Under the pieces are notes generated by a model that worked only from the letters and a program-made list of their open reading frames with translations, was not told the origin of the DNA and did not search any database. Shown piece after piece: positions 9,281 through 61,863 of a stretch of 64,000 bases of DNA; positions within the stretch are counted from its first letter, which is position 1; each line of letters opens with the position of its first letter. This stretch comes from Octopus sinensis (lineage: Eukaryota): the NCBI RefSeq assembly GCF_006345805.1, contig NC_042997.1:69998001-70062000 (forward strand). The letters are read 5' to 3'. Both the position numbers and the translations under genes were made by a program.

Positions 9281-9951
9281 CCTAAAAGTCACTTATCCAA
9301 AACTATCACCGATTTAATATTCATATTTTAACACGTATGACCAAATCGATCTAGAAGCAAAGAATTGATGCTGCTCTTAAATTAGATTATACAGTAGAAA
9401 CCTTAACTCTATGGAAATTTGATTACACATCTAAAAATCATTCAATGTAAATTCATAGTAGAATTAAGCATAATCTGTAATAATATACTTTGTCCATTTA
9501 TTCATAGGACTAGTAAAGTTGCACATCACCCTCTGCGGCATAATTGTTTCTTAGTAATATAATGATCTAGAAATATCCACGATTAATCAAATTGTTTGTT
9601 TACTTAGTTTGATATGGTGGATTTCTATCTTTCTATCACTAAGCCACCTCTTCTAAAAAATGCGTTTTTCATTAATACGATCTTATGCTTTCTTCCCTTG
9701 TGTTGTATGAGGTACGTTGCAAACTATACTGTTATGGATTGATAGAACCATTGTATATACAGTTAAAATTATATGATACTTCCAGGCAATCTTTCTTTGT
9801 TTCATACTTTTAATTAACCTCTTCCTTTCTGTTTTAAGCACAGCAAAAACGGCACACATTGTTATATGTGTGTGCGTTTATCTAAAGGATATCCGTCAGT
9901 CAAGGACGAACATTTGTTTGCAACTAATCACGATTCAGCCAGCTTGCCGCC

Positions 9952-13933
<3,982 letters not shown>

Positions 13934-28785: not shown

Positions 28786-30033
28786 GAGGGGTTGAACAAA
28801 ATAATGGAAACACCTTAAAATTTCAAACAAATTTATTTTGATATGGGGTAGGACCGCCTTTCGCAGTAATTACAGCTTGAATTCTACGAGGTATGGACTC
28901 GTATAAAGTTTGAATTTTTTCTAAAGGAATTTTTGTCCATTCTTCAGCTAAAACAGTCTCCAGCTCTTGTAGTTATGATGGTGGAGGATATCGACTGTTT
29001 ACTTATTTTTCTAAAATGCACGATAAACATTCAATGATATTGAGATCTTGGGACTGTGGTGGCCAGATAAGATGTTCAACTTCCTTGTGCCATTCAGTAA
29101 CAACTTTAGCTGTGTAAATTGGTGCATTATCATCCTGACAGATTGCGTTTCCTTCCGGAAATAGTTCTGCAACCATAGGATGAATTTGATCAGATAAAAT
29201 GCTTGAATAATCTATTAATTCTGCCATGAAGGGAAAACCATTGGGCCAACGGATTTCCACGATATAGTACCCCCAGATCATCACAGATCCACCTCTATTT
29301 TTAACAGTTGGAAGAAGGCAGTCTGGTTCAAATACTTCTTTTGGCTGTCTTCACACGTATACTCAACCGGTGGTCGGAAATAAGGCAAATGATGACTCGT
29401 CCGAGAAAACAACATTCTTCCATTGCTCTAGGGACCAATTCTGTAGCTTTTTATTCAAATCTAAACGCTTTGCAACGTTTGCTTTTGAAAGTAGTGGTTT
29501 TCTGATTGCAGCCCTCCCGTGAAATCCGGCTTTGTGCAGCTCCCGGTGAATATTTTTTGTGGAAACTGGGTTCTCGGGGTGGTCATTAAGACCTGTAGTA
29601 ATTTGGGGAGTTGTACTTTTGTGATTCTTTCTAACAATTTGCGTAAGAGTCCGACGGCCCGTATTTGAAATGTTGATTTCTTCCGGAATTTTGTCTCGAC
29701 AAGGAGGTTTTTCGCCCTTTCTCAAAGGTTTTCATTACTTTCGAGATACTTCTTGATACAACAAACATTTCGGCAGTTTTTGTTATGCTAGCGCCTGCCA
29801 TACGAGCACCAACAATTTGACTTCTTTCAATGTCCAGAGTTCTGTTATTTTAATGAATTTGAATTACCTTTTTCTGGTGATATCTGAAAAGAAACAGCAA
29901 TTTTAGTAAAACATATTAAGCAACACTAATATTAAATCAAAAAACAAAAAAAAATAAAGAAGCTTTCGACGGTTTTATAGATATTTCAAAATTATGATGT
30001 TATGCTGTGTTTCCATTACTTTTCCAATCCCTG
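28786..30033 (-). mobile_element. Full-length decayed Tc1-like transposon
   Basis: ~27-bp TIRs (C/G)AGGG.TTG.A.AA..TAATGGAAACAC at both ends with TA flanks; fragments RELHKAGFHGRAAIRKPLL, WKNVVFSDES, QDDNAP, WPPQSQDLNIIE (DDE); frameshifted. Confidence 0.92.
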
Positions 30034-30223: not shown

Positions 30224-30426
30224 AGTTAATCCAAACACGAAACACAAAGAGAAAACAACAACGCGAGGACGTGGAACAAATATAGTATTATTGGACGCTC
30301 AAGAAGGAAGGAAGGGAAGAAGGAAGGTTTAACGTTTCGAGCGGAGCTCTTCGTCAGAAACATAGGAAAAGGGAAAATCCAGAGAAGGGAAGACGGAGGA
30401 AAAAAATCGCCAACGGTACACACGCG
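30224..30426 (-). mobile_element. Short non-coding hammerhead element in (TA)n (PLE pLTR-like)
   Basis: ~200 bp bounded by TA runs; contains the motif at 30327-30361. Confidence 0.75.
30327..30361 (-). ncRNA. Minimal type I hammerhead ribozyme motif
   Basis: Minus strand GTTT-CTGACGA-A-GAGC(tcc)GCTC-GAAA-CG-TT-AAAC; palindrome AACGTT replaces stem III. Confidence 0.8.
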
Positions 30427-31333
30427 ATATATATATACAATATTCTATAATTAGATACACAATTATAATCAGGGGTCAGTTAAGTGCCTCGCCACCTACA
30501 TAAAAAAAGTGTTTATATATATATATACATATCGCTTTTTATTTTCTCGTGTCTCATTTTGTTCACGTTTTTTTGACGTCCCATACCCATATATGCATGT
30601 ATATATACATATATATGCAGGTATGTACGAATATGTATGTATGTATATTTATTTGTATATATGTGTGTAAATTTATGTATACGTTTGATTACGCGTGCAT
30701 GTGGTTTGCGTTTATATTGTTCATCTTCAGGTCAGCCCTAAGATTAAATACATTTGAAATCAGAGACAGTCCAGATGCGACCCTACCATCTATATATCTT
30801 ATATTTCTTTTATTCTCATCATACAGTATATATTGCAGCAAGTCATCAAAGTTGTCTTTTCTATACAGCAGGATGTGACCTGAGGAAGATTTTGCTAGTA
30901 TTTTTAGCAGCTTGGGGTAAAGTAAATAAGAGGGCTCACTCGTTAACTCATTTCTCTATCGAGCGTGAGATTAAACTACGGAAATAGTGGTTTTTCATCG
31001 GCACCAACACGCGTGCTCCCTGGCCGACAACGACACCTTTTGAGGGAGGCTGCGCGACCGGCGAAACACGCCTGCTACCGCCTACATTCTCTTTATGTAA
31101 TTATCCTTTGTGAGAGAACGGGGTTTTAATGTGCACGAGTGAGTAAAATGAATGTTAGGTAGCGTGTAAAAATACTGTAAGTTTGCTTTTACGACTTTTC
31201 TGTCTAGTACAGCTGGCAATCGATTATCGCTTACCTCCTCCATTTTCAACTTTCGGCCATTATTCGTCTACATTTGCACACGTCCCTATTTGCATGTATA
31301 TATATGTAAGTAAAGAAAGTCCGTACGTAATAC

Positions 31334-31397
<64 letters not shown>

Positions 31398-31398
<1 letters not shown>

Positions 31399-31656
31399 AT
31401 TGGTATTTTTATATAAGCTTCAAGCTTATGGCAATCTCTGTGCAATGTCTAAGGAAAATAGTCTAATAACGGAGCATATAAGCCCCCGACAGAAAAAAGA
31501 AGCCTGAAGGCTTATATGCTCCGCTATTAGACTATTTTCCTTAGACATTGCACGGTGATCGCCATAAGTTTTAAGCTTATATTAAAAATACCATTACTAT
31601 TATTTACAAGATTGTAAAATTCGGCACGGTATAACAAAACCATTCGCACCGAAAGG

Positions 31657-31657
<1 letters not shown>
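31398..31657. mobile_element. Fold-back hairpin element with one-sided tail in (TA)n
   Basis: Inverted arms ~31401-31484 / 31509-31593 (several mismatches), ~60-bp unpaired extension on the right, TA runs either side. Confidence 0.8.
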
Positions 31658-31702
<45 letters not shown>

Positions 31703-37357: not shown

Positions 37358-37582
37358 GTTTTAAATATTGCCTGAAGAGCAGCAATTTTTGCCCCGAAGG
37401 ACAGTTTGTGGGAGGGGATTGAGTCGATTACATCGACCCCAGTGTTTCACTGGTACTTAATTTATTGACCCCAAAAGGATGAAAGGCAAAGTCGATCTCG
37501 GCGGAATTTGAAGTCAGAACGTAGCGACGGGCGAAATACTACTAAGCATTCCGTCCAGCGTGCTAACGATTCTGCCAGCTCG
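37356..37582 (-). mobile_element. SINE family B
   Basis: Reverse complement of the family B body; AAT repeats on both sides. Confidence 0.8.
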
Positions 37583-38637: not shown

Positions 38638-38851
38638 TTTTCTACTGCAGGATCAAGGCCCGAAATTTTATGGGAGGGTGGGGGAGCAATCGATTAGATC
38701 GACCCCAGTACGCAACTGATACTTAACTTATCGACCCGATAGGATGAAAGGCAAAGTCGACCTCGACGGAATTTGAACTCAGAACATAAAGACAGATGAA
38801 ATACCGCTAAGCATTTCACCAGGCGTGCTAACGTTTCTGCCAGCTCGCCGC
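38638..38851 (-). mobile_element. SINE family B
   Basis: Ends CTGCCAGCTCGCCGC; body as other copies. Confidence 0.85.
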
Positions 38852-39024
38852 TTTTATGAATCTATATATTGCAGTACAAATATATATATATATATAGATA
38901 TATATATATATATATATATATATAATAAATATATGCATGTACATAATACATATATGTACGTACCTACATCTACATGTATATTACATGCATATATATATAA
39001 TATATATATATATATAATAATAAA

Positions 39025-39420
39025 TATTAGGGAATAATCCAAATTTACAGGGAAAAAATCAGATTTAGGATTAAATCCAATTTAATAGTAAAATATTATA
39101 AATATTATTAGAGACAAAACCACTATTTGCAAAACAAACAAGGAAAGACTTAATCAATACATAAAATTTTAATAAATAGTCAAAAAAACCGCCACTACAA
39201 TCGTTTCTTGTCTTGATCGACAATCTTCAGGTGGACTTCCAATTTACAAGTCAGTTTCATAATTTTGAAACTGACTTGTAAATTGGAAGTCCACCTGAAG
39301 ATTGTCGATCAAGACAAGAAACGATTGTAGTGGCGGTTTTTTTGACTATTTATTAAAATTTTATGTATTGATTAAGTCTTTCCTTGTTTGTTTTGCAAAA
39401 TAGTGGTTTTGTCTCTAATA

Positions 39421-39426
<6 letters not shown>
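39025..39426. mobile_element. Fold-back hammerhead element (family H1) in (TA)n
   Basis: Near-perfect inverted arms ~39101-39259 / 39266-39426, 6-nt loop, ~75-bp tail on the left; second copy at 58953-59350. Confidence 0.9.
39291..39333 (+). ncRNA. Minimal type I hammerhead ribozyme (mirror copy on minus strand 39192-39234)
   Basis: CCAC-CTGAAGA-TTGTC(gatcaa)GACAA-GAAA-C(gatt)G-TA-GTGG; predicted cleavage after 39329. Confidence 0.88.
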
Positions 39427-39456
<30 letters not shown>

Positions 39457-41309: not shown

Positions 41310-42016
41310 GTATATAGACGACGGGCTTCTTTCAGTTCCCGTCAATCCAGTCCACTCACAAAGGTCTGGTCTGTCAGAGGCTATAATAGAAGACACTTGC
41401 CTAAGGTGTCTTCTACTATAGGCTCTGTCGATGTATATACATATATACAACGAGGTATATACCATTGTGGGTATATACTACATAACCGTGTGTATCAGTC
41501 TTTATAAAAAGTAAATATGTGATAAACCGAGGAAAGACGGTGTACATCAAATTTTAAAACGATTGGATTTTCTGATTTAAACTAAATGTACCTGGTATTT
41601 TATAATACTTTCCAGAAACAACCAAAACAATTTTATATTTCGAAGTATTTAATCTCCAAATGAAACTGATTATAGTATCACAGCGAGCGGGATATATTCG
41701 TCTGTTTGCCTGAACCCGGAACTATGTGGTTGGAAAGCAAACTTCTTACTACACACCCACGCCTGCGCCTCTAAGCATGTCTTCTTATTGCTCATATCTA
41801 TAAGGCATCTAACTGGCAGAATCGTTTGCACGCCGTGCAAAGTGCGGTATTCTATTCGTCTTTACGTTCTATATCCAACTTTCGTCGAGGTCGGTTTTGC
41901 CTTTCATCCTTTCGGGGTCGATAAAATAAGTATCAGTCGAGTACTGTGGTCGATGCGATCGACTTACCCCCAACCTCCCCTGAAATTACTGGCTGTATGC
42001 CAAAATCTTAAACCAT

Positions 42017-46511: not shown

Positions 46512-46638
<127 letters not shown>

Positions 46639-47162
46639 AAAGAGGTGACCCTTAACAGGACATCTTACATGATAGAAGGAACAGTCAAAATCTAAATCAC
46701 GGTTAATTTCGAAGGGAATGAAAAATAAAAATATTTTCAATAGTTACCACTTGTACCTAGGTTTCGGACATTAATTAACAAATAAAATAATATGTTTGTC
46801 TGTGTCCTTCATCAGCAAGGGCCGCTAGATAACATATACTTATGGGACAAGTTGAGAGTACATTTACCATCTTTATACACTTTAAGTTTTCAAATTCACC
46901 ATGCAAGCGCAGTTATCGTCGGCAGCAAACAGAACCCTTTTGTGCCGACTGCCTTCAAAATTACTAAAAATCATATTAAGAAAATATAGAGTAGAAGAGA
47001 CATTTTCTACCAGTGGCCTAGCATGCATGAAATAGTCAAGTAGACAACATATCTTTCAAATAAAAGTAGTGTACATTTATACACAAAAGAAGTGATCCTC
47101 AGCAGGACACCTTACATGCTAGAATGTATATATAATATTTGTATGCATATACACAATTGTAT

Positions 47163-47523
47163 AGGCGCAAGAGTGGCTGTGCAGTAAGAAGTCTGTTTCC
47201 CACAACATAGTTCCAGGTTCAGTCTCACTGCGTGGCACCTTGGGCAAGTGTCTTCTACTATAGCCTTGAGCCGACCAAAGCCTTGTGAGTGGATTTGGTT
47301 GATGGAAACTGAAAAAGTCCGTCGTATAGATCTGTTTGTGTGTCTGTGTTCCCCCTCCACAATCGCTTGATAACCGATGCTGGTGTGTTTACGCCCACAT
47401 AGCTTAGCGGTTCAGTAAAAGAGAGCCATAGAATAAATACTAGGTTTATAAAGAATAAGTCCTGGGGTCAATTCCAGCATGGTCGCAGTCAAAATGACTG
47501 AAACAAGTAAAAGAATGAAAGAA
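47163..47523 (+). mobile_element. tRNA-SINE family A
   Basis: GGCGCAAGAGTGGCTGTGCAGTAAG head, GGTTCAGTCTC B-box-like, tail GAAACAAGTAAAAGAATGAAAGAA. Confidence 0.9.
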
Positions 47524-47885
47524 TATCGAATACACAGATACATAGATACATAGATACATACATACATACATATATATATATATATATGTGTAAGGTGTCC
47601 TGCTGAGGATCACTTCTTTTGTGTATAAATGTACACTAATTTTATTTGAAAGATATGTTGTCTACTTGACTATTTCATGCATGCTAGGCCACTGGTAGAA
47701 AATGTCTCTTTTACTCTATATTTTCTTAATATGATTTTTAGTAATTTTGAAGGCAGTCGGCACAAAAGGGTTCTATTTGCTGCCGACGATAACTGCGCTT
47801 GCATGGTGAATTTGAAAACTTAAAGTGTATAAAGATGGTAAATGTACTCTCAACTTGTCCCATAAGTATATGTTATCTAGCGGCC

Positions 47886-47955
47886 CTTGCTGATGAAGGA
47901 CACAGACAAACATATTATTTTATTTGTTAATTAATGTCCGAAACCTAGGTACAAG
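47886..47955 (+). ncRNA. Minimal type I hammerhead ribozyme with long stem II (mirror on minus 46750-46819)
   Basis: CTTG-CTGATGA-A-GGACA...TGTCC-GAAA-CCTAGG-TA-CAAG; predicted cleavage after 47951. Confidence 0.88.
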
Positions 47956-48066
47956 TGGTAACTATTGAAAATATTTTTATTTTTCATTCCCTTCGAAATT
48001 AACCGTGATTTAGATTTTGACTGTTCCTTCTATCATGTAAGATGTCCTGTTAAGGGTCACCTCTTT

Positions 48067-48172
<106 letters not shown>

Positions 48173-51470: not shown

Positions 51471-51829
51471 GAGGAACATACATGTATAGTTGTCTCCAAT
51501 CATATTTTTCCATGATTATATTGAAGATTCTTTTTCTGCTAAGTAAATATATTTTGTTCTCCTTCTCTATCTTACCTGTTTATTCCATATAAACTTACCC
51601 TGATAGAAAAAACAAGAATCCGACACACACAATCGGAATATTAACCCAAAATATTATCAAATTGACTCTCATAGCCATATGTACATTACATTAATTATTA
51701 CCACAATGTCAGCATCAGCTAAACCTCTACTTACTTGCTAATGCGGCTAGAATTAGCAGTAAAAATTTCTCTCGTATCACACCCTACTGTTTTCTGCATT
51801 TGATAGCTTAATGGACTTCTTGCATCTCT

Positions 51830-53200
51830 ATGACGGTTATGCTAAAAGCTACGGCTTTAAGTCCAACACAAAACTTACGTCTAGTTTTTCAAAAACTAGC
51901 GTTGAATGTTTGGACACAAAGTTAAGTTTTCTGGAGGCAGAATAGTGACAGAGTTTTTTTGCAAGCCCACGTTATCCCACATTTATCTCCACCGCCGTTC
52001 CGATCATCCACATCTTATTATTCGGTCAAATCCGAAATCCCAATTTTTGAGGATAAAACGGATTTGTACTGACATAGAGGATTACTGGAAATATGCAAAT
52101 GCTTTTGTACATCATTGTGTCAAACGCGGTTACAGTGAATGACGATTAAAGGATATAGCAAATGAAATAGCTGAGATTAGCAAAGATAGTCAAACCTTCA
52201 CGCATAATCTTAGCAAACACAATACAATAGATGACAGAATTCCTTTAGTGATTAACTGGCATCGAAATTTCACCAGCATTTCAAAAGTGTTGCATGAAAG
52301 TTACCAGCATGTAGCGAAAAAGTATCTTCGTTTCAAACAGATATTTCCTCAACCGCCTATTGTAGCCTTTAGACAGAATAAGAATATAATAGGATTATTG
52401 ACCTCTATTTCTGACTCCAAGAAAACGAACATAGGAGTATCTGTACACTGTACCTTGAAAAACAGCCGCAAGAGAGGTAAGCCCTGTTCATTGTGCAACA
52501 ACATGAGTCTAGTGAATTCCATCAGGAATCATAACAGTAATGTTATGATTTATACACAAGGTGAGACATGTAGAGATTCCCATTTGGTGTACGTAGTAGA
52601 ACGTACAAAACACAATCTGATTTATGTTGGTTGTACAACAGAACAATTAAACAAAAGATTTAATGGGCACAGCTTCGACATCAGGAACAATAACCGTAGT
52701 TCGACAGAACTTGCTGAACATTTCGTTTGAAACGGCTGCAATTTTGAAAAAGACTTGAAAGTGCATATTCTCAGAAAATATTCTGAATCTGCTTCACTTT
52801 CACTTCTCAGAATGCATGAGGAGAAATATGTTTTCGAATTATTAACTTCACGCCCTGGTGGAATGAATAAAATGACTTGAGAATATCATCAAATTTATGC
52901 AAAACTGTTTGATTAAATATGCTTCTTTTGCCTTTTCTTTTTTCTTTCCTTTTTTTTTTTTGTCTTTTTTCTGCCTTTATCTTTTCGCCTATTATAAAAT
53001 CGAAACTTAATGACCGATGATGCCATTCCATCATGTGGACGCTGGTTGCTTTCGTTCATACTTTAAATTTAAATTTCTATAATTTAGAATATTTATCACC
53101 TCTTATTTTGAACTTGACAAAGACAGACTTACTGTCGAAATATCGTTCAACCAATAAAATATCTCTTACAATCAAATCACGCTCTTCGTCTTGACTGATT
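51830..53200 (+). mobile_element. Penelope-like element 3' half (RT thumb, Cys linker, GIY-YIG, 3' hammerhead), pseudogenised
   Basis: KPTLSHIYLHRRSDHP..PKSQFLRIKRICT..RGY; PPIVAFR; KPCSLC; LVYVV..IYVGCTTEQLNKRFNGH..LAEHF; stops at 52140 and 52728. Confidence 0.92.
53108..53150 (+). ncRNA. Variant minimal hammerhead in PLE 3' region
   Basis: TTGAAC-TTGACAA-A-GACAG(actta)CTGTC-GAAA-TA-TC-GTTCAA: perfect 6-bp stem I and 5-bp stem II, core deviates from CTGANGA. Confidence 0.7.
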
Positions 53201-53244
53201 ACCTTTAAAAAAGAACCCACAACAACAACAACAATAACAATTAT

Positions 53245-57577: not shown

Positions 57578-57578
<1 letters not shown>

Positions 57579-58145
57579 GGTTAAGTAATTGAGATTCTAG
57601 TGAATTCTAAAGAATTCACATGAATATGGTCCTTAACTAGGATGCACCGGAAATCTATATGGTGTTAACCATACGACAAGTGGGGTGATTACAAATAGGA
57701 AAAAAGTAACAAGAATGGATTAAAATCTCGGTACGATCGTTTCGTACGAGGACATCTTTAATAAGCTACAAAAAATGCAGTGAATACAGATGGCTCGTAC
57801 TCGTCAGCCGAAAAAACATCAGAGAATTCCCAAACATCAAAAGGGGTAGATACAAAAGAGGTTGTAAGATTAGCTGCATTGAAGAAAGTTCGATTCATGG
57901 AGATCCGATGAAAGGTTTTAAACCTATAGAATTTATGCATGTCTCCATGAATCGAACTTTCTTCAATGCAGCTAATCTTACAACCTCTTTTGTATCTACC
58001 CCTTTTGATGTTTGGGAATTCTCTGATGTTTTTTCGGCTGACGAGTACGAGCCATCTGTATTCACTGCATTTTTTGTAGCTTATTAAAGATGTCCTCGTA
58101 CGAAACGATCGTACCGAGATTTTAATCCATTCTTGTTGCTTTTTT

Positions 58146-58150
<5 letters not shown>
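57578..58150. mobile_element. Fold-back hammerhead element (family H2) in (TA)n
   Basis: Arms ~57695-57903 / 57943-58150 (one mismatch seen), ~39-nt loop, ~115-bp tail on the left, TA runs on both sides. Confidence 0.9.
58033..58118 (+). ncRNA. Minimal type I hammerhead ribozyme with extended stem II (mirror on minus 57727-57812)
   Basis: TTCGG-CTGACGA-GTACGAG...CTCGTAC-GAAA-CGATCG-TA-CCGAG; predicted cleavage after 58113. Confidence 0.9.
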
Positions 58151-58892: not shown

Positions 58893-58944
<52 letters not shown>

Positions 58945-58952
58945 ATAATAAA

Positions 58953-59640
<688 letters not shown>

Positions 59641-59828: not shown

Positions 59829-61763
59829 CATATACATGCATACATATACATATACATACATATACATGCATACATATACATATACATACATATACATGCA
59901 TACATATACATACATCTATAAATATATCATAGTGAAAGTTATAGAAATGAAACTAATATATATGTTGTGAAAGTATTAATAGTTTCACTATTAATACTGA
60001 ATGTATTAGGTCACACTACAAAAGAGATGTTATTGTTTAACTTTTTACATATAATTCTGAAATAGTGTAAGAGATGATAGATTGGTCCGGGCTAGCATTA
60101 GGTAAGAAGTTGAAAATAATCTGACCCATGACATTGCATGGGCTCCAAGCAAGGCCCGTGCAACATTTGAATGAAATCTGTTCGGTAGTTCTTGAGTTTT
60201 AGTGATGCAAACATACAGGCAGATAGACACTCATTCTCAGTTTTATATATATATATGTCATGAAATAGAAGTGATTAATTTTAGTAGCCATTTTGACAGA
60301 ACATTGCAGTGACAAAAATCAACAACCAATAACATCGCATGTGAATGTAGGGAAAGAAACAGCAGTTAACAATTAAAATTTTATTCGGCACAAACTAATT
60401 CCACGGAAGGTTGCACTATTAATTGACTGTAGCTAACACCACCACTAAATGGTAGTTTGATCTGTATGAAATTCCAACTTAGTTTCCGTAAAATCACATT
60501 CTGCTGTGTATTATATACACGTTAATTTGATTGTTTATGATATATACGATACTCTAAATAAACATTATTTGATATAGATATCTATAGCCACTCAACGAAA
60601 TATATAGGTATCGGACTTTAATATATGCACATAACCATACGCATATATGCGGAGGAAGTGGAGAGAGAAAGGGAGAGAAGGAGGAGAGAGACCAGGAGCA
60701 CAATATATTTGTACACCCAATTTTATGTGGGTCGTAAATACGAGAAAAACCAAACGTTGTTACATGAATTGCGCCCAATGTATACTTTCTTATGTTGACA
60801 ATATCCACACGACGGATATTACTGTGTACCTTTGGCTCTACCTACAACCACTGCAGCTCGGATATTGCTCGTTTATTGACAGTGGAACTAGCTGGAAGCA
60901 TCTGGCGGTGACTAGAAATCCATGACAAAATGAAAAGAAAAAAACTCTTCAACGGTCAGATGTTGCCAAGACTCCCGATTTTGTCCATCGTGTCCGGCAC
61001 ATAGCGACAACTAAAATGGGTTGATGAAGGCCACTGCTAAGATCCATGTAACCTTCTATGAAAACTGGTACGTTGTTAAGTCTGTCAAATTTGAAAGATT
61101 GCTGCAGTGACTCCTCGAAGAAATCTTTGCCATTGTTGATAGTCATCAAGCAGATTTCCTGTTTTGAATATACGAATTTTTAGACACAATCTATCTAGCA
61201 ATATATATTTTCCGATTTCTCTTTCCTTTTTTCCATTTTATGAAATACGGAATGGTATGGCTTGTCTTCTGTTCCCAAAGCGAGTGCATTAGAAATTCAA
61301 TAGAATTATTGAAGTTTTTTAGTTTCAAGTCAGTAAACCCGTGAATGTTCCATCTATAACTTTTGTTTTTTATTTCTTTTACCCTTGTCTCAACACTTAG
61401 TCTATACACGAATAAGATATCAACTGTATCTTTCAATATAATTATTCATTCATGCATTTACATATTAATTTTGGATGCATTGTGTACGATTTGACTGGCA
61501 TATCAAACACAGAGATTATCTTAGTTACTCACTAGAAAATACATTTACTGTTGCTATTGTTGTTGTTGTTGTTGTGGTGGTGGTGTTTCCGTTATTGTCA
61601 TAGCTGTTGTTATTTAGCTTGAATTCATTCTTATTTGAGTACATCATTCCATCAATAAATACTCTGTCTTCATAAATATTTATGACAACATTGTCCAATA
61701 TATCCTTCCTGAGATTGAGAGAGAAATAGCTGGTATTTCTAGCAAACCGAGTGACCCCAACAA

Positions 61764-61863
61764 NNNNNNNNNNNNNNNNNNNNNNNNNNNNNNNNNNNNN
61801 NNNNNNNNNNNNNNNNNNNNNNNNNNNNNNNNNNNNNNNNNNNNNNNNNNNNNNNNNNNNNNN
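61764..61863. other. Assembly gap (100 N)
   Basis: Direct. Confidence 1.

What the first reader, a model, noticed from the sequence alone, without database searches (positions are those of the whole stretch)
39025..39426. Fold-back hairpin with a ribozyme on each strand and a one-sided tail (family H1)
Seen: ~160-bp near-perfect inverted arms with a 6-nt loop, giving hammerheads at 39291-39333 (+) and 39192-39234 (-). A ~75-bp tail extends only one arm. Established: PLE insertions can carry an inverted 5' pLTR lacking the tail. Inference: this is a minimal PLE insertion product. A read-through transcript from either strand would form ~160 bp of dsRNA that masks its own ribozyme and could feed ADAR or Dicer; the DNA could extrude a cruciform.
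Basis: partly seen in the sequence, partly recalled or inferred. Interest (0 to 1): 0.75.

Follow-up and report, generated by a model that had tools for sequence, protein, structure and literature searches.

The report
Penelope-type hairpin insertion with twin hammerheads
This 410-base hairpin, with a small self-cutting RNA motif on each strand, is one copy of a very common repeat that is likely the short stub a Penelope-like jumping gene leaves when it inserts; the shape is known, and the only new hints are that many relatives turn back just past the predicted cut site and that their transcripts look likely to be A-to-I edited.

Summary
Observation confirmed: arms of 160/161 bp (one indel), a 6-nt loop and minimal type I hammerheads on both strands. 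The tail is 84 bp, not 75. A second copy (58944-59347) has the same two outer ends, and its subfamily differences sit on both of its arms. Three other hammerhead or hairpin families and a broken Penelope-like element (PLE) lie in the window, the short ones in (TA)n. Public-run contigs show a very abundant family with fixed 3' ends and many different turning points. That fits 5'-truncated PLE-type insertions whose inverted arm is made at insertion, and fits a DNA MITE or an assembly artefact poorly. The anatomy is published (Cervera 2014; Arkhipova 2013; Craig 2021). Two extras are unproven. (1) The 15 best-supported junctions of 66 all turn 8-30 nt 3' of the predicted cut, which could be a footprint of in vivo cleavage. 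(2) A probable RNA run carries 7 T>C (A>G) changes that are absent or nearly absent from the three comparison runs. No mobilising PLE was linked to this family. New member of a known kind.

The parts
39016..39099 (-). One-sided tail, about 84 nt: the element's 3' end, running into (TA)n
   Evidence: Shared with copy 2; loose ends in X4 and X15 extend it to about 39016; predicted fold closes near both ends, z -1.5
39100..39259 (-). Tail-bearing arm (pLTR-like unit, sense on the minus strand)
39192..39234 (-). Minimal type I hammerhead; predicted cut between 39196 and 39195
39260..39265 (.). 6-nt loop at the head-to-head junction; copy 2 has a 3-nt loop at the equivalent place
39266..39426 (+). 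Inverted arm without the tail; ends in (TA)n at the same place as in copy 2 and in many public contigs
   Evidence: loose ends at 39419: 28 contigs in X4, 25 in X15
39291..39333 (+). Minimal type I hammerhead; predicted cut between 39329 and 39330
39337..39360 (+). T7 run and AT-rich zone, 7-30 nt 3' of the predicted cut, where the best-supported junctions of shorter, hammerhead-less relatives turn
   Evidence: (table 5)
39001..39015 (.). (TA)n target microsatellite, left; a TSD cannot be read
39427..39456 (.). (TA)n target microsatellite, right
58944..59347 (-). Second copy of the family: same tail end, same short-arm end, hammerheads at 59211-59253 (+) and 59165-59123 (-)

Best explanation
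The element is a head-to-head pair of identical short arms, each with a minimal hammerhead motif, plus a one-sided tail, sitting in (TA)n, and it is likely a 5'-truncated insertion of a short Penelope-like (PLE) end unit whose second arm was likely made during insertion. Shown: the anatomy; a second copy with the same two outer ends; a very abundant family with fixed 3' ends and variable turning points. Inferred: a PLE RT/GIY-YIG protein, acting in trans, cuts (TA)n and primes cDNA at two start sites 84 nt apart (tail end and short-arm end), as the anole PLE does in vitro. The two cDNAs are then joined head to head near the template's 5' end (about 55%). The alternative is that one cDNA folds back and is copied (about 45%). 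Copies that reach the natural 5' end, about 25 nt before the ribozyme, keep both hammerheads, as this one does; many others stop just 3' of the ribozyme. The finished hairpin is probably a dead end: read-through RNA is predicted to form about 160 bp of duplex that masks the ribozyme and would be edited by ADAR.
For: Four differences between copies 1 and 2 (3 substitutions, one 4-nt indel) are each present on both arms of a copy, while arm-specific differences lie only at homopolymer runs. X4 contigs show 66 listed joints; the 15 shown are all head-to-head turns at different places, each at depth 100-464. Both 3' ends are constant across contigs (table 7). Mirrored-bin depth falls toward the 5' end in X4 (2.7-3.2 M, 1.0-1.4 M, 0.39 M, 0.08 M) and in X1 (depth is not copy number). 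The same anatomy recurs in unrelated families in the window. A broken PLE with a C-terminal GIY-YIG (PF01541, E 2e-4, just under the curated cut-off; 37% identical to an RT+GIY-YIG protein, E 6e-24) ends in a U3-A8 hammerhead, a variant described for PLEs (PMC4209133). Published PLE traits match: dual min-HHRs on opposite strands 100-700 bp apart (PMC4209133); inverted, shorter pLTR, tail and head-to-head palindromic junctions (PMC3846280); (TA)n targets (PMC8557442); tail equal to the distance between two RT start sites, with both strands cut and extended (PMC11167929). The listed variants of the three comparison runs include no A>G/T>C class (table 1), so edited hairpin RNA does not seem to be the usual template.
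Against: No autonomous PLE shares this unit: the window's PLE end has no similarity to it, no genome is held, and the metagenome scan found nothing. The tail (84 nt) is about twice the published 30-40 bp. No TSD can be read. Only two full copies could be aligned. The mirrored differences are subfamily variants (the 4-nt deletion is 79,170 of 88,131 depth at 39278 in X4), so conversion between arms could also produce them. One junction keeps the original loop and loses one side (39171 to 39282, table 5c), so some later central deletion does occur. Near-symmetry of joints does not separate twin priming from fold-back if both ends fall in one zone (P 0.72 per joint). The two outer ends resemble each other weakly (shuffle P 0.018), as an imperfect TIR pair would.
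Confidence: 0.8

Rival explanations
1. The whole hairpin plus tail is itself the replicating unit: a read-through hairpin RNA is retrotransposed by a PLE protein, and the shorter forms are later central deletions of an unstable palindrome.
For: Both window copies turn at the same place. At least one junction keeps the loop and loses one side. Family sequence is present in a probable RNA run.
Against: Mirrored variants need one template per copy or added conversion. The loop differs between copies. No A>G class among the listed variants of the comparison runs, although the probable RNA run looks heavily edited. The best-supported junctions lie 75-100 nt from the original loop, not next to it.
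Confidence: 0.1
2. A DNA foldback element or MITE with long inverted arms and TA targets; the arms are homogenised by conversion and the hammerhead is a passenger from a captured PLE piece.
For: TA flanks; long inverted repeats; weak similarity of the two outer ends; family H4 has symmetric ends with no tail.
Against: The inverted repeat stops 84 bp short of one end. Depth falls toward the centre and turning points vary. Tail-only pieces running into TA-rich sequence are present (loose ends at 39090). Three unrelated families with arms each carry intact hammerheads pointing outward.
Confidence: 0.07
3. Assembly or library artefact: a fold-back chimera from long reads.
For: Arm differences are homopolymer-length changes typical of long-read error. 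No listed contig spans the locus. A laid run may be the source sample.
Against: Two loci with different loops but the same outer ends. Older hairpins with diverged arms (H3, 88%) and one with a repeat inserted in its spacer (H4). Head-to-head junctions at depth 45-464 in X4 contigs, and contigs crossing a copy-1-type loop in X4 and X15 (tables 4, 5, 5c).
Confidence: 0.03

Closest known systems
Insertion units of canonical EN+ Penelope-like elements: inverted 5'-truncated pLTR copy plus one-sided tail (Arkhipova 2013 PMC3846280; Craig 2021 PMC8557442)
   Same: Head-to-head inverted arms with a palindromic junction, shorter inverted arm, tail on one side, (TA)n targets with unreadable TSD
   Different: No ORF at all; tail 84 nt rather than 30-40; the whole insert is about 410 bp; partner element not identified
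[quoted passage not shown]
   Same: Short stem I (4 bp), intact core, palindromic stem III suited to dimers; pairs on opposite strands about 100 bp apart were reported in Schistosoma
   Different: Stem II is 5 bp, not 7-8; activity untested; that paper's text as read gives no junction or editing data
Poseidon PAc of the green anole in vitro (Frangieh 2024, PMC11167929)
   Same: Two RT start sites bounding the tail and AT-rich targets would explain the two fixed ends
   Different: There the tail lies in the ORF start, and no RNA ends were found at the hammerhead cut; here junctions cluster just 3' of the predicted cut
Metazoan non-LTR retrozymes (Cervera 2020 PMC7229834; bioRxiv 10.64898/2026.07.22.740005)
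   Same: Non-coding, about 250-nt unit with a type I hammerhead, thought to derive from PLE pLTRs
   Different: Retrozymes are head-to-tail tandems that give circular RNA; this is a head-to-head pair that cannot release a monomer
Self-pairing repeats as ADAR substrates (Porath 2017 PMC5625713; Xenopus PMC10636886)
   Same: A palindromic repeat forms dsRNA alone; Penelope repeats are heavily edited in lizard and X. tropicalis
   Different: The passages read do not tie editing to PLE hairpin stubs or to ribozyme masking

Membership tests
EN+ PLE truncated insertion | Hammerhead in the terminal repeat | tested here: met
EN+ PLE truncated insertion | Adjacent inverted 5'-truncated copy, head to head | tested here: met
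EN+ PLE truncated insertion | One-sided tail (published 30-40 bp) | tested here: met
   Present and constant, but about 84 bp
EN+ PLE truncated insertion | Fixed 3' end with variable 5' truncation | tested here: met
   Loose ends, joints and depth gradient
EN+ PLE truncated insertion | AT-rich or (TA)n target | tested here: met
   Both copies and loose ends
EN+ PLE truncated insertion | Unit is the pLTR of, or is mobilised by, an RT+GIY-YIG element | tested here: inconclusive
   A PLE exists in the window but does not match the unit; no genome held
EN+ PLE truncated insertion | Target-site duplication | tested here: inconclusive
   Hidden by (TA)n; no empty site available
Minimal type I hammerhead | Core CUGAnGA / GAAA / NUH with stems I and II | tested here: met
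   Rfam models did not hit
Minimal type I hammerhead | Palindromic stem III allowing a dimer | tested here: met
   8-bp self duplex, -5.8 kcal/mol
Minimal type I hammerhead | Self-cleavage | not testable with these tools
   Needs an in vitro assay or RNA-end data; only contigs were available
Non-LTR retrozyme | Head-to-tail tandem units, each with a hammerhead | tested here: not met
   Both window copies are head to head; no tandem joint among those shown (51 of 66 not shown)
DNA MITE / foldback element | Inverted repeats at both outer termini | tested here: not met
   The inverted repeat ends 84 bp inside one terminus; outer ends only weakly alike
DNA MITE / foldback element | Uniform length and internal structure among copies | tested here: not met
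   Many different turning points

The most novel reading that the evidence does not exclude
The family records the ribozyme working in vivo. It comes in two size classes: long hairpins with both hammerheads, made from uncut RNA, and short hammerhead-less hairpins that turn 8-30 nt 3' of the cut, made from ribozyme-cleaved RNA whose cDNA ends were trimmed and joined. That would be a genomic footprint of hammerhead cleavage in the PLE cycle. The same hairpins would also be a large self-contained supply of ADAR substrate that silences its own ribozyme.
Probability: 0.25. Interest if true: 0.62.

Novelty: new member of a known kind. Interest (0 to 1): 0.33.

Why it matters
As an element it is ordinary: a tidy example of a published PLE insertion shape. 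Its use is as a natural data set. The role of PLE hammerheads is stated to be unclear (PMC8557442), cleavage was dispensable in vitro, and no RNA ends were seen at the cut (PMC11167929). A very abundant, young, 245-nt family makes it cheap to map thousands of junctions against the cut site and to tell twin priming from fold-back. If the T>C changes are editing, such stubs would be a self-pairing source of dsRNA like the palindromic Harbinger repeat of frog (PMC5625713). That would matter most if the host is an octopus, which I infer only from recalled SINE sequence; no call identified the organism.

Tried and rejected
Whole genome: none held. Rfam: no hammerhead hit in the window or in one arm; the miRNA hits are hairpin and microsatellite noise below gathering scores. 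Metagenome scan with a 33-nt core pattern: 0 matches. Earlier findings by sequence and by place: nothing. No RNA holder is listed on record; X12 is RNA only by guess. X12 contigs ending at 39199-39200 looked like ribozyme cleavage but lie 4-5 nt from the predicted cut and about 30 nt from the variants at 39169-39170, as 31-mer bubbles would; rejected. Low X12 depth over the hammerhead was not used, because contigs cannot rank parts. Local self-complementarity does not explain the junction cluster: best stem 4 bp there, 2-5 bp elsewhere. A conserved tail fold across families was not shown: z -1.5, -3.45, -0.9, +0.8, -0.9, -0.5 for six 3' ends. Copy number was not estimated, because summed contig depth is not copy number. 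Only 4 of the 24 listed runs were laid; the other 16 holders (shares 0.45-0.55) are not counted as evidence. Lunse 2017 is not held; it is cited only through a review passage. Searches for a paper describing junctions at the hammerhead cut or hairpin stubs listed none beyond those cited; most subscription journals and Repbase are not covered, and no supplements were read.

Full report
Observation. The arms are 39100-39259 and 39266-39426, identical at 160 paired positions with one homopolymer indel, around a 6-nt loop. A relaxed descriptor gives 10 motifs in the window against a mean of 0.05 in 20 shuffles. Rfam does not find them. The tail is about 84 bp, from about 39016. Both flanks are (TA)n, so no TSD can be read. 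Read in the ribozyme's sense, the two 5' ends meet in the middle and the tail is a 3' end.

Window context. A second copy at 58944-59347 has the same tail end and the same short-arm end but a different loop. Three substitutions and a 4-nt indel separate the copies, and each is present on both arms of a copy; differences between the arms of one copy lie only at homopolymer runs. Unrelated families share the anatomy: H2 (arms 208 of 209 identical, tail about 110 bp, two hammerheads), H3 (arms 88%, tail about 60 bp, no hammerhead found) and H4 (arms 489 of 492, two hammerheads, no tail); there is also a solo hammerhead element. A broken PLE at about 51.7-53.2 kb has a C-terminal GIY-YIG domain (PF01541, E 2e-4, just below the cut-off; 37% identical to an RT+GIY-YIG protein, the 1 hit among 292 candidates; Atlas first hits GIY-YIG clusters at 0.96-0.97) and ends in a U3-A8 hammerhead. 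It has no similarity to H1. No call identified the organism; the flanking SINE looks octopus-like to me from recall only.

Family data. No genome is held. Of 24 listed runs, 20 hold part of the stretch. I laid 4, all assembled contigs: X4 (kind not on record, 12,257 contigs laid), X15 (DNA by guess, 970), X1 (DNA by guess, 871) and X12 (RNA by guess, 46). One of them may be the window's own sample. Both 3' ends are constant: loose ends repeat the tail end (24 contigs in X4, 10 in X15) and run into TA-rich sequence at the short-arm end (28 and 25). The 5' side is not constant. Of 66 joints, the 15 best supported are shown, all in X4. All 15 are head-to-head turns within 15 nt of the mirror axis, with both arm ends 8-30 nt 3' of the predicted cut. 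Of 33 rows with letters between the sides, 12 are shown: 8 lie in the same zone (some repeat joints of the first table), 2 turn near the tail, and 2 are strongly asymmetric, one keeping the original loop. Fifteen uniform positions did not fall within 23 nt in any of 1,000,000 draws, but 51 joints are unseen and the display is chosen by depth. Mirrored-bin depth steps down across this zone and again beyond the ribozyme in X4 and X1; it is not a copy number. No listed piece spans this locus, though contigs in X4 and X15 cross a loop of the copy-1 type.

Editing hint. X12 differs from the window at 11 listed places. Seven are T>C, that is A>G on the other strand (39150, 39151, 39167-39170, 39379), at shares from 9% to 100%. 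Five of the seven have zero depth in all three other runs; 39151 has 180 of 1.45 million in X4 and 39167 has 4 of 4,032 in X1. The four non-T>C changes all occur in X4. None of the seven adenosines has a 5' G, in line with ADAR preference (PMC5625713, passages), though this is weak in a 73% AT element. The seven form only three clusters, the run's kind is a guess, and there is no DNA from the same animal, so allele or strain differences are not excluded.

Mechanism. Inferred: a PLE protein acting in trans cuts (TA)n and starts cDNA at two sites 84 nt apart. In vitro, the anole PLE cuts and extends both strands and starts at two internal sites whose spacing is the tail (PMC11167929, parts 1-2 of 4 read). 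Two cDNAs joined near the template's 5' end explain identical arms, a fixed short-arm end, a one-sided tail and a tail-less case such as H4. Self-priming, proposed for rotifer PLEs (PMC3846280, parts 1-4 of 5), explains the near-symmetric loops but needs an extra rule for the fixed stop. Symmetry cannot decide between them: P is 0.72 per joint if both ends share the zone and 0.23 if they are uniform. The finished hairpin is predicted to mask its ribozyme fully, but even one arm folds it poorly, and such motifs are reported to cleave weakly and as dimers (PMC4209133, parts 1-2 of 4; review PMC6765202, passages). The junction cluster may mark ribozyme-cleaved templates. Against that, no shown joint ends at the cut itself, and RT stalling at the U7 run or at stem I, or later deletion, would give a similar picture.

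Comparison. Dual minimal hammerheads on opposite strands 100-700 bp apart were reported in 2014. The inverted 5'-truncated copy, the tail and (TA)n targets are standard PLE traits (PMC8557442, passages), and very short new PLE insertions are documented (median 128 bp, PMC9977147, passages). Retrozymes are head-to-tail and so differ (PMC7229834, passages; bioRxiv 10.64898/2026.07.22.740005, part 1 of 5). Penelope repeats are heavily edited in lizard and X. tropicalis (passages). An Octopus vulgaris repeat annotation lists active Penelope families and does not contain the words palindrome or hairpin (PMC13282606, passages). Four earlier AI reports on other genomes reached the same reading; they are not independent evidence. 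Supplements were not read and may describe such stubs.

Verdict. The feature is real and correctly described apart from the tail length, and it is best filed as a truncated PLE-type insertion (0.8). It is a new member of a known kind, interest 0.33. The open, testable part is whether the junction cluster is a footprint of ribozyme cleavage (0.25) and whether the hairpins are edited.

Noticed in passing
window 57578-58150: Family H2: same anatomy, arms 208 of 209 identical, 38-nt loop holding a small internal hairpin, tail of about 110 bp with strong predicted structure (z -3.45), hammerheads with a long stem II loop at 58032-58119 (+) and 57813-57726 (-).
   Followed up: partly
window 46632-48072: Family H4: head-to-head arms of about 480 bp (489 of 492 identical) with a hammerhead in each, no tail, and a repeat in the spacer. 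The compound (CA)/(TA) flanks are mirror images for about 100 bp, as if the flank was copied with both arms.
   Followed up: partly
window 31397-31658: Family H3: older hairpin (arms 88 nt, 88%), 24-nt loop, tail of about 60 bp on the right, no hammerhead found; may be a short-class stub.
   Followed up: partly
window 30225-30427: Solo element of about 200 bp between (TA)n runs with a minimal hammerhead at 30361-30327 (-) and no inverted arm.
   Followed up: no
window 51700-53219: Broken PLE: end of RT, a Cys-rich linker, GIY-YIG domain, and a 3' region with a U3-A8 hammerhead at 53108-53150; ends at an (AAC)n run.
   Followed up: partly
window 9777-13589: Open 1270-codon frame with RVT_1 (E 5e-27) and zf-RVT: an apparently intact non-LTR retrotransposon ORF next to trinucleotide repeats.
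   Followed up: no
window 39012-39045 and 39397-39430: The tail end and the short-arm end resemble each other (shuffle P 0.018), and the predicted fold brings them together at the base of one stem; possibly two similar RT start sites.
   Followed up: partly
window 37410-37582, 38676-38847, 41844-41985: Dispersed SINE-like repeat in both orientations, 76-83% alike; octopus-like from recall only.
   Followed up: no
window 29003-29731: Decayed DDE transposase pieces (DDE_3, E 5e-4, below cut-off).
   Followed up: no
window about 61760-61860: A 100-N scaffold gap.
   Followed up: no
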